DNA from: Eledone cirrhosa | Taxonomy: Eukaryota | Direction of reading: 5' to 3' | NCBI GenBank assembly: GCA_964016885.1 | Contig: OZ024745.1 | Span: 115,940,001-116,004,000, forward strand | DNA: 64,000 nucleotides | Shown here: positions 39,381 through 39,591 of the stretch, piece after piece | How positions within the stretch are numbered: position 1 is the first letter of the stretch | Layout of the letters: each line of letters begins with the position of its first letter | Position numbers and translations under genes: made by a program | Notes under the pieces: generated by a model | What the model was told of the DNA's origin: nothing | Database searches by the model: none | What the model saw: the letters and a program-made list of their open reading frames with translations, nothing else

Positions 39381-39591
39381 TTAATTTGTGCACGTACCCT
39401 TAGATTGACTGCATCTTGGATAACGTTGGCAGCAATCTTTGTCAGAACTACAAGGATGTCCATACCAACAATCATAGCACAGTTTAGCCCAGCGGTCACA
39501 AATGTTATAACGGCGGCAGCAGTCATTATTGCTCCTACAACGTTGACGTAAACACATCCTGTTGGGGAGCAACATCCAGGGCATGTGCATC
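39381..39591 (-). CDS. Terminal coding exon of a cysteine-rich peptide with two tandem knottin/ICK-like domains
   Basis: Acceptor TTGTTTTTTTTCTTACAG|G at 39592 (phase 2); frame MHMPWMLLPNRMCLRQRCRSNNDCCRRYNICDRWAKLCYDCWYGHPCSSDKDCCQRYPRCSQSKGTCTN*; 12 Cys in two C-C-CC-C-C blocks; GC-richer than flanks; AATAAA on minus at 39237-39242 and 39226-39231. Confidence 0.85.

What the first reader, a model, noticed from the sequence alone, without database searches (positions are those of the whole stretch)
39381..39591. Tandem double-knottin-like peptide exon, the only clear host gene segment
Seen: C-x4-C-x5-CC-x5-C-x6-C, a 2-residue linker, then C-x5-C-x5-CC-x5-C-x6-C, with internal similarity (C.S..DCC.RY..C), a strong splice acceptor and downstream AATAAA. 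Established: C-C-CC-C-C is the inhibitor-cystine-knot framework of conotoxin framework VI/VII and spider toxins, and bivalent double-knot toxins exist. Inference: a secreted bivalent knottin, possibly a venom/salivary, antimicrobial or neural toxin-like peptide; I cannot name it or say whether it is already described.
Basis: partly seen in the sequence, partly recalled or inferred. Interest (0 to 1): 0.75.

Follow-up and report, generated by a model that had tools for sequence, protein, structure and literature searches.

The report
Ancient unnamed double-knot peptide hormone
This is the last exon of a spliced octopus gene whose 12-cysteine domain is conserved in clams, snails, segmented worms, ribbon worms and lamp shells, so it is likely not a venom toxin but a still unnamed secreted peptide, predicted to fold as two linked knots and likely to act as one of the animal's own hormones or nerve signals.

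Summary
The motif is real (minus strand). It is the last exon of a five-exon gene with a coding span of about 52 kb. Contigs from three coded organisms splice it to an exon at 62608-62676, which fixes the cysteine-rich frame. The 136-residue product differs from an uncharacterised Octopus vulgaris/sinensis protein at 4 sites. It reads: signal-like start, acidic spacer, KR, short aromatic peptides, KR, optional 11-residue micro-exon (54418-54450), 12-Cys domain. No second copy was found in the genome. Relatives occur in bivalves, gastropods, a chiton, annelids, a nemertean and a brachiopod; 56 of 58 share eight identical cysteine spacings. Deep conservation, a single copy and non-venomous hosts argue against venom and for an endogenous secreted ligand. 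The model's lobes resemble knottins; whole-domain matches are Draxin, Dickkopf, colipase and Bv8, all weak (Z up to 3.8). It is neither the octopus Dickkopf-like gene nor the named oyster prohormone-3, and I found no name for it in the catalogues searched. Tissue, processing, disulfide pairing and receptor are untested.

The parts
39381..39591 (-). Coding part of last exon (exon 5): phase-2 start, P-W-x-x-L-P arm, 12-Cys domain, stop TAA
39564..39581 (-). Near-invariant P-W-x-x-L-P arm just before the first cysteine
   Evidence: P, W, L, P at least 90% conserved in alignments A1 and A3
39477..39554 (-). Knot-like lobe 1 (C-x4-C-x5-CC-x5-C-x6-C)
   Evidence: model residues 12-41 align to a knottin at rmsd 1.2 A over 30 residues, Z 2.6
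39390..39470 (-). Knot-like lobe 2 (C-x5-C-x5-CC-x5-C-x6-C)
   Evidence: family profile matches omega-atracotoxin-Hv2a over this lobe at E 0.004
39592..39603 (-). Splice acceptor of the last exon
   Evidence: contigs of 3 of 4 runs break here with one loose end
38777..39380 (-). Likely 3' UTR, AATAAA at 38794-38789 close to the X1 contig end
   Evidence: end not provable from contigs
54418..54450 (-). Optional 33-nt micro-exon (exon 4), AG/GT ends, phase 2-2, adds 11 Trp/Gly-rich residues right after the second KR
   Evidence: encodes the insert of isoform X1 of O. sinensis and O. bimaculoides; skipped in the X9, X1, X5 contigs
62608..62676 (-). Exon 3 (69 nt, phase 2-2): peptides after the first KR, an RR site and the K-R before the domain. 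Exons 2 and 1 lie beyond the window (G000 C5:116008282-116008333 and C5:116031336-116031414)

Best explanation
This exon ends a spliced gene found once in this octopus genome and conserved across Lophotrochozoa, whose precursor is predicted to be secreted and cut at paired basic residues to release a compact two-knot peptide that likely acts as one of the animal's own hormones or neuropeptides on an unknown receptor. Shown: exon structure, the splice junction, 12 invariant cysteines, the KR/RR sites, the optional micro-exon in genome and annotated isoforms. Inferred: a hydrophobic N-terminus directs secretion; a prohormone convertase removes the acidic spacer at the first KR and, in octopus, frees the 69-residue domain at the second KR; six disulfides form two knot-like lobes packed across the C-x2-C joint; the P-W-x-x-L-P arm and the C-x-D-C-W joint form the receptor contact; the micro-exon would lengthen the mature N-terminus by 11 residues and so would tune activity.
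For: Splicing in three coded organisms. One exon combination gives a 136-aa product with 4 differences from O. vulgaris/sinensis P0005. Hydrophobic 12-residue window of 2.45-3.52 (Kyte-Doolittle) within the first 50 residues in 16 of 16 homologues tested. KR followed by an aromatic-A-x-L/M-S motif in 16 of 27 precursors printed, including all named molluscs but Haliotis, which has KK there. Only one locus by DNA, own protein and a divergent homologue. 56 of 58 sequences share spacings 4,5,5,6,2,5,5,5; the other two are isoforms of a Lingula paralogue. Non-cysteine identity to octopus is 12-21 of 37 in 13 named non-cephalopod proteins; a 14th has other spacing. All 10 of 20 looked-up hits that carried a species name are lophotrochozoans; Ostrea, Mactra, Haliotis, Bradybaena added. 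Isoforms differing in the linker are also annotated for Pecten and the Lingula paralogue. Precedent: toxin-like orphan neuropeptides CCWamide/agatoxin-like and prohormone-3 (PMC8557429, PMC13311285).
Against: No tissue or cell-type data: run records are coded and none is on record as RNA. No peptide evidence; the oyster ganglion catalogue table does not list the oyster orthologue under the accessions I tried, which may mean low neural expression. The second KR is not kept in every mollusc (P0016, P0019 have only the first), so the mature form varies or is longer. No C-terminal amidation signal. Conservation fits any host secreted protein with a fixed partner, not only a hormone. Signal peptide judged by hydropathy only. 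Model confidence moderate (pLDDT 79, pTM 0.52).
Confidence: 0.55

Rival explanations
1. A Dickkopf/Draxin-like extracellular modulator: the two-lobed domain would bind a Wnt co-receptor (LRP5/6, Kremen) or an axon-guidance receptor (DCC) and steer development or wiring.
For: The five top rows of the wide fold search cover the whole domain and are Draxin (Z 3.3, 53 aligned, rmsd 3.7), DKK1 C-domain (3.1), DKK4 N-domain (3.0), colipase (2.7), Bv8 (2.6); an alignment-free model gave DKK1 first (Z 3.8, 55 aligned, rmsd 2.9). Dropping the first and fourth cysteine of each lobe leaves spacings 5,6,6,8,5,6,6 against 5,5,6,9,5,5,4 in the octopus Dickkopf_N exon. That exon scores 24.0 bits on the family profile against 16.0 +/- 3.3 for cysteine-fixed shuffles (8 of 500 reach it).
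Against: All Z under 4 and tied with single knottins. None of 21 family members matches Pfam Dickkopf_N, Draxin or Prokineticin at E up to 1. hhalign probability 25%. The genome has a separate Dickkopf_N gene on C7. Only one cysteine-rich domain; prohormone-type spacer and basic sites.
Confidence: 0.17
2. An endogenous ion-channel modulator: the two knots would bind the animal's own voltage- or ligand-gated channels, as knottin toxins do in prey.
For: The 26 rows that Foldseek showed (of 36) are all single knottins, many of them channel-binding spider peptides; weak profile match to omega-atracotoxin-Hv2a (E 0.004); Pfam Toxin_23 below cut-off in 9 of 21 members; net charge +6 and exposed aromatics in the octopus domain.
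Against: No Foldseek match at E up to 0.001; plant protease-inhibitor knottins score as well as toxins; charge ranges from -4 to +9 across the family.
Confidence: 0.12
3. An antimicrobial or immune peptide, or a secreted protease inhibitor.
For: Cationic in most molluscs; same exon plan as mussel multi-MgCRP-I (modules 2-4 residues apart in one last exon after a phase-2 intron; PMC4558851); knottin carboxypeptidase inhibitors among fold matches.
Against: MgCRP-I is hypervariable, has at least 67 loci and is confined to mussels; here the mature domain is the most conserved part and no second copy was found; vent-worm members are acidic.
Confidence: 0.09
4. A bivalent venom or salivary toxin of octopus, like DkTx or Hi1a.
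For: Tandem C-C-CC-C-C pattern, pre-pro layout; octopuses are venomous (established knowledge).
Against: Orthologues in oyster, scallop, clam, abalone, land and pond snails, Lingula, Capitella and vent tubeworms; 1-2 differences in 69 residues between this genome and three Octopus species; one locus. A secondary use in saliva is not excluded.
Confidence: 0.04

Closest known systems
Second prohormone-3 paralogue ('ProHo3-related') of nemerteans and Laqueus (Thiel et al. 2021, PMC8557429)
   Same: Secreted precursor ending in 12 cysteines as two C-C-CC-C-C modules joined by C-x2-C (read by eye from the supplement); orphan.
   Different: Other spacings (6,7,4,10,2,6,5,4,4 in Laqueus), no P-W-x-x-L-P arm, no C-x-D-C-W; our family's motif DCWY occurs 0 times in that supplement.
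Prohormone-3 / ITG-like prohormone
   Same: Protostome orphan prohormone with knot-like modules; insect first module also starts C-x4-C-x5-CC; oyster form has 12 cysteines and ganglion expression.
   Different: The oyster prohormone-3 is XP_011427435.1, a different gene from our oyster orthologue XP_011447338; long linkers between modules; 16 cysteines in arthropods and annelids.
CCWamide / agatoxin-like peptides
   Same: Endogenous toxin-like knotted neuropeptides of protostomes, receptor unknown.
   Different: Single module with C-terminal Wamide (recalled); no sequence match to Pfam Toxin_9.
Dickkopf CRD1/CRD2, Draxin C-domain, colipase, prokineticin/Bv8
   Same: Two-lobed disulfide domain; best whole-domain fold matches; similar core cysteine spacing.
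   Different: 12 rather than 8-10 cysteines; no Pfam match; single domain; octopus has its own Dickkopf-like gene.
Double-knot spider toxins DkTx, Hi1a, CpTx1
   Same: Two tandem knot modules (PMC6262176).
   Different: Venom-specific and lineage-restricted (established knowledge), linkers longer than two residues (recalled); none matched by sequence.
Mussel multi-MgCRP-I
   Same: Modules 2-4 residues apart, one last exon, phase-2 intron, dibasic site.
   Different: Mytilus-only, hypervariable, many loci; synthetic peptides had a non-toxin disulfide pairing, a warning that the pattern does not prove a knot.

Membership tests
Inhibitor cystine knot (ICK) | C-C-CC-C-C framework | tested here: met
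   twice
Inhibitor cystine knot (ICK) | Knottin-like backbone of each lobe | tested here: inconclusive
   Predicted model only; rmsd about 1 A over about 28 residues to knottins but E above 0.001 and Z 2-3.3
Inhibitor cystine knot (ICK) | I-IV, II-V, III-VI pairing with threading | not testable with these tools
   No access to model coordinates; needs disulfide mapping or NMR
Venom double-knot toxins (DkTx, Hi1a) | Restricted to a venomous lineage, fast-evolving | tested here: not met
   Conserved in non-venomous members of four phyla; one locus found
Venom double-knot toxins (DkTx, Hi1a) | Venom-gland expression and channel activity | not testable with these tools
   Run metadata coded
Prohormone / proneuropeptide | Signal peptide | tested here: inconclusive
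   Hydrophobic N-terminal stretch in 16 of 16; no SignalP available
Prohormone / proneuropeptide | Conserved dibasic cleavage site after an acidic spacer | tested here: met
   KR at 43-44; same site and following motif across molluscs
Prohormone / proneuropeptide | Neural or endocrine expression and processed peptide | not testable with these tools
   No tissue labels, no peptidomics
Prohormone-3 | Orthology to the named prohormone-3 genes | tested here: not met
   Different oyster gene; different spacing from listed prohormone-3 sequences
Dickkopf | Pfam Dickkopf_N match and a second colipase-fold domain | tested here: not met
   0 of 21 members match; family search hits only C7; precursor has one cysteine-rich domain
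Dickkopf/colipase/prokineticin fold | Two-lobed disulfide fold | tested here: inconclusive
   Top whole-domain rows but Z 2.6-3.8; hhalign 25%
MgCRP-I | Hypervariable mature region, multigene, Mytilus-restricted | tested here: not met

The most novel reading that the evidence does not exclude
An undescribed pan-lophotrochozoan hormone family whose domain is a Dickkopf-type two-lobed module with one extra disulfide per lobe, turning each lobe into a full cystine knot: a living link between Wnt-antagonist/prokineticin folds and tandem-knot toxins, with a conserved micro-exon switch on its receptor-activating arm and a receptor still to be found.
Probability: 0.2. Interest if true: 0.75.

Novelty: new variant of a known kind. 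Interest (0 to 1): 0.5.

Why it matters
A secreted ligand kept with fixed cysteine spacing across molluscs, annelids, nemerteans and brachiopods, yet not named in the neuropeptide catalogues I could search, is a ready candidate for one of the orphan lophotrochozoan receptors and can be tested in Platynereis, Aplysia, oyster or octopus. It also warns venom-mining pipelines that a tandem conotoxin-like framework in a venomous mollusc can be an ordinary host gene, and it offers a natural compact double-knot scaffold.

Tried and rejected
Plus-strand frames: no cysteine pattern. The overlapping +1 minus-strand frame is also open across the exon but has a stop in exon 3 just before the junction, so it is a shadow of the Cys/Arg codons. 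An ATG at the start of exon 3 leads into a third frame that stops after 18 codons. Word-index search at near lengths found nothing. P0013 (2848 aa, 43 repeats) was dropped as a compositional hit; P0061-P0063 as partial. ESM Atlas: best scores 0.80 and 0.77, leads only. No RNA holder listed as such. Micro-exon inclusion in this species: no spliced contig in 4 runs, inconclusive. Substitution classes rest on 40 of 96 rows (X1: 3 silent and 3 changed codons; X5: 3 silent), too partial for dN/dS. The domain tree has few columns: two supported groups (95/96), octopus with molluscs, Lineus, Lingula and some annelids, the other holding Capitella and Helobdella; root and order not tested. Literature: motif search (1 unrelated paper), accession searches (0), topic searches gave no paper naming the family; the mRNA accessions tried were my guesses from an offset. 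Earlier-findings look-ups were empty. No complex prediction was run, as no partner is claimed.

Full report
Observation. The described pattern is on the minus strand. Frame window:39381-39590 reads two C-C-CC-C-C modules two residues apart and ends in a stop. They are the only such modules in the window's six frames, and 60 block-shuffled windows held none. The exon occurs once in the 3.0-Gb genome by DNA, by its own protein and by a divergent homologue; the other rows of that last search had E 0.27 or worse and lay on the homologue's N-terminal part or contained stops. Only best candidates are scored, so distant paralogues can be missed.

Gene structure. Two frames are open across the exon, so splicing had to decide. 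Contigs of three of four runs (X9, X1, X5; three coded organisms) stop matching at 39593 and share one loose end; the fourth (X14) continues into the intron. The loose end lies at 62610-62639, in a 69-nt exon with AG/GT ends. The junction is phase 2 and puts K-R directly before the last exon in the cysteine-rich frame, and a stop in the other. A search at longer lengths found the full protein in Octopus vulgaris, O. sinensis and O. bimaculoides, named only 'uncharacterized' or 'hypothetical', or with an automatic 'Granulins domain' label. Mapping it gave exon 1 and exon 2 beyond the window, exon 3 at 62608-62676, a 33-nt micro-exon at 54418-54450 and the last exon; introns are 23.0, 5.6, 8.2 and 14.8 kb. 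One combination of boundaries gives 136 residues with 4 differences from P0005. That the host is an octopus is inferred from this. The micro-exon encodes the 11-residue insert of the annotated X1 isoforms and has a counterpart in an unnamed Logan protein that is 83% identical over the last exon. The three contigs skip it, and one search found no spliced contig with it.

Precursor. Hydrophobic start (12-residue hydropathy 2.85), acidic spacer, KR at 43-44, a 12-residue Trp/Tyr peptide, RR, a short peptide, KR at 66-67, then the optional insert, a P-W-x-x-L-P arm and the 12-cysteine domain. This is the layout of a prohormone as described in PMC6425005 (passages); cleavage itself is inferred.

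Family. phmmer over 1.84 billion representatives gave 52 hits at E up to 0.001: the octopus cluster, one repetitive artefact, three partial proteins and 47 with the whole domain. Twelve cysteines and one proline are invariant, and P, W, L, P of the arm and D, W of the joint nearly so. Of 58 sequences, 56 share the first eight spacings; only the last loop varies (6-23 residues). Of 20 hits looked up, 10 carried a species name: Lineus, Pecten, Physella, Crassostrea, Lingula (two genes), Capitella, Ridgeia, Paralvinella, Helobdella; one search added Ostrea, Mactra, Haliotis and Bradybaena. A chiton member and two Platynereis paralogues turned up in paper supplements. No named hit is outside Lophotrochozoa, but most hits are unnamed. 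Non-cysteine identity to octopus is 12-21 of 37 outside cephalopods. The domain is the most conserved part of the precursor, the reverse of conotoxins (established knowledge) and of mussel MgCRP-I (PMC4558851, abstract and passages).

Structure. With 50 sequences AlphaFold2 gave pLDDT 79, pTM 0.52. Foldseek found nothing at E up to 0.001; the 26 rows shown of 36 are single knottins, toxins and plant inhibitors alike. The wide aligner ranked Draxin, DKK1, DKK4, colipase and Bv8 first, each over 49-57 residues, at Z 2.6-3.3; an alignment-free model put DKK1 first at Z 3.8. These scores are low and tie with single knottins. The genome has a separate Dickkopf_N match on C7 with a colipase-like exon 1 kb on; its spacing resembles our domain minus one cysteine pair per lobe, and it scores modestly above cysteine-fixed shuffles (8 of 500), but hhalign gives only 25% and Pfam matches none of 21 members to Dickkopf_N. 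Kinship with the Dickkopf/colipase fold is therefore a lead. The knot pairing is not shown; the mussel case shows the pattern can pair otherwise.

What is known. I found no paper naming the family (searches). Seen: PMC8398477, passages, sections 20, 23, 24 and supplement searches: oyster prohormone-3 is another gene, and our orthologue's accessions are not in the table text; its Figure S1 alignments were not readable. PMC8557429, passages, supplement searches and part 25: no DCWY, but a 'second prohormone 3 paralog' with the same two-module, C-x2-C layout and other sequence. PMC6425005, passages and supplement search: members sit in file 2, which by the text is the unannotated candidate set, and not in file 3; both files were cut when stored. 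PMC3890597, passages and supplement search: members sit in a file of signal-removed predicted proteins; five files were not searched. PMC5996578, supplement search only: none. PMC13311285 and PMC6262176, passages. Subscription papers (for example the Sepia neuropeptidome, recalled) and bioRxiv supplements were not visible, so a name may exist.

Verdict. A real, spliced, ancient gene. The best reading is an orphan secreted hormone or neuropeptide with a compact two-knot domain (0.55); rivals are a Dickkopf/Draxin-like modulator (0.17), an endogenous channel modulator (0.12), an immune peptide or protease inhibitor (0.09) and a venom toxin (0.04). It works like the orphan cysteine-rich prohormones but fails membership of prohormone-3, Dickkopf, MgCRP-I and venom double-knots: a new variant of a known kind, interest 0.5.

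Noticed in passing
L020 (G000 C7:26640520-26640660, minus): A Dickkopf_N match above cut-off (31.3 bits) with a colipase-fold-like exon about 1 kb downstream: an octopus Dickkopf-like gene; PMC6425005 reports protostome dkk only from a few species in the passages read.
   Followed up: partly
window 45280-47211 and 48105-50503, plus strand: Broken non-LTR retrotransposon copies with RVT_1 matches inside the last intron, opposite to the gene; a related piece at 4266-4766 minus.
   Followed up: partly
window 19176-19994: 75-bp unit repeated 10.9 times at 97% identity, open as Cys-containing repeats on both strands; a Pfam HIT score from summed repeats is likely spurious.
   Followed up: no
window 54418-54450: The octopus micro-exon peptide resembles the W-G-H-x-S-R-F-P-W stretch that precedes the domain in the annelid second group, and exons 3, 4 and 5 each carry a P-W motif; possibly exon duplication.
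   Followed up: no
P0021, P0023, P0025, P0033, P0036, P0037, P0039, P0046, P0051, P0060: Long annelid-type precursors add a second conserved K-R...C-x-C-x-C-E-T motif upstream of the domain, absent in octopus.
   Followed up: no
window 37700-38300: Sequence just past the 3' end looks by eye like a decayed DNA-transposon piece; not tested.
   Followed up: no
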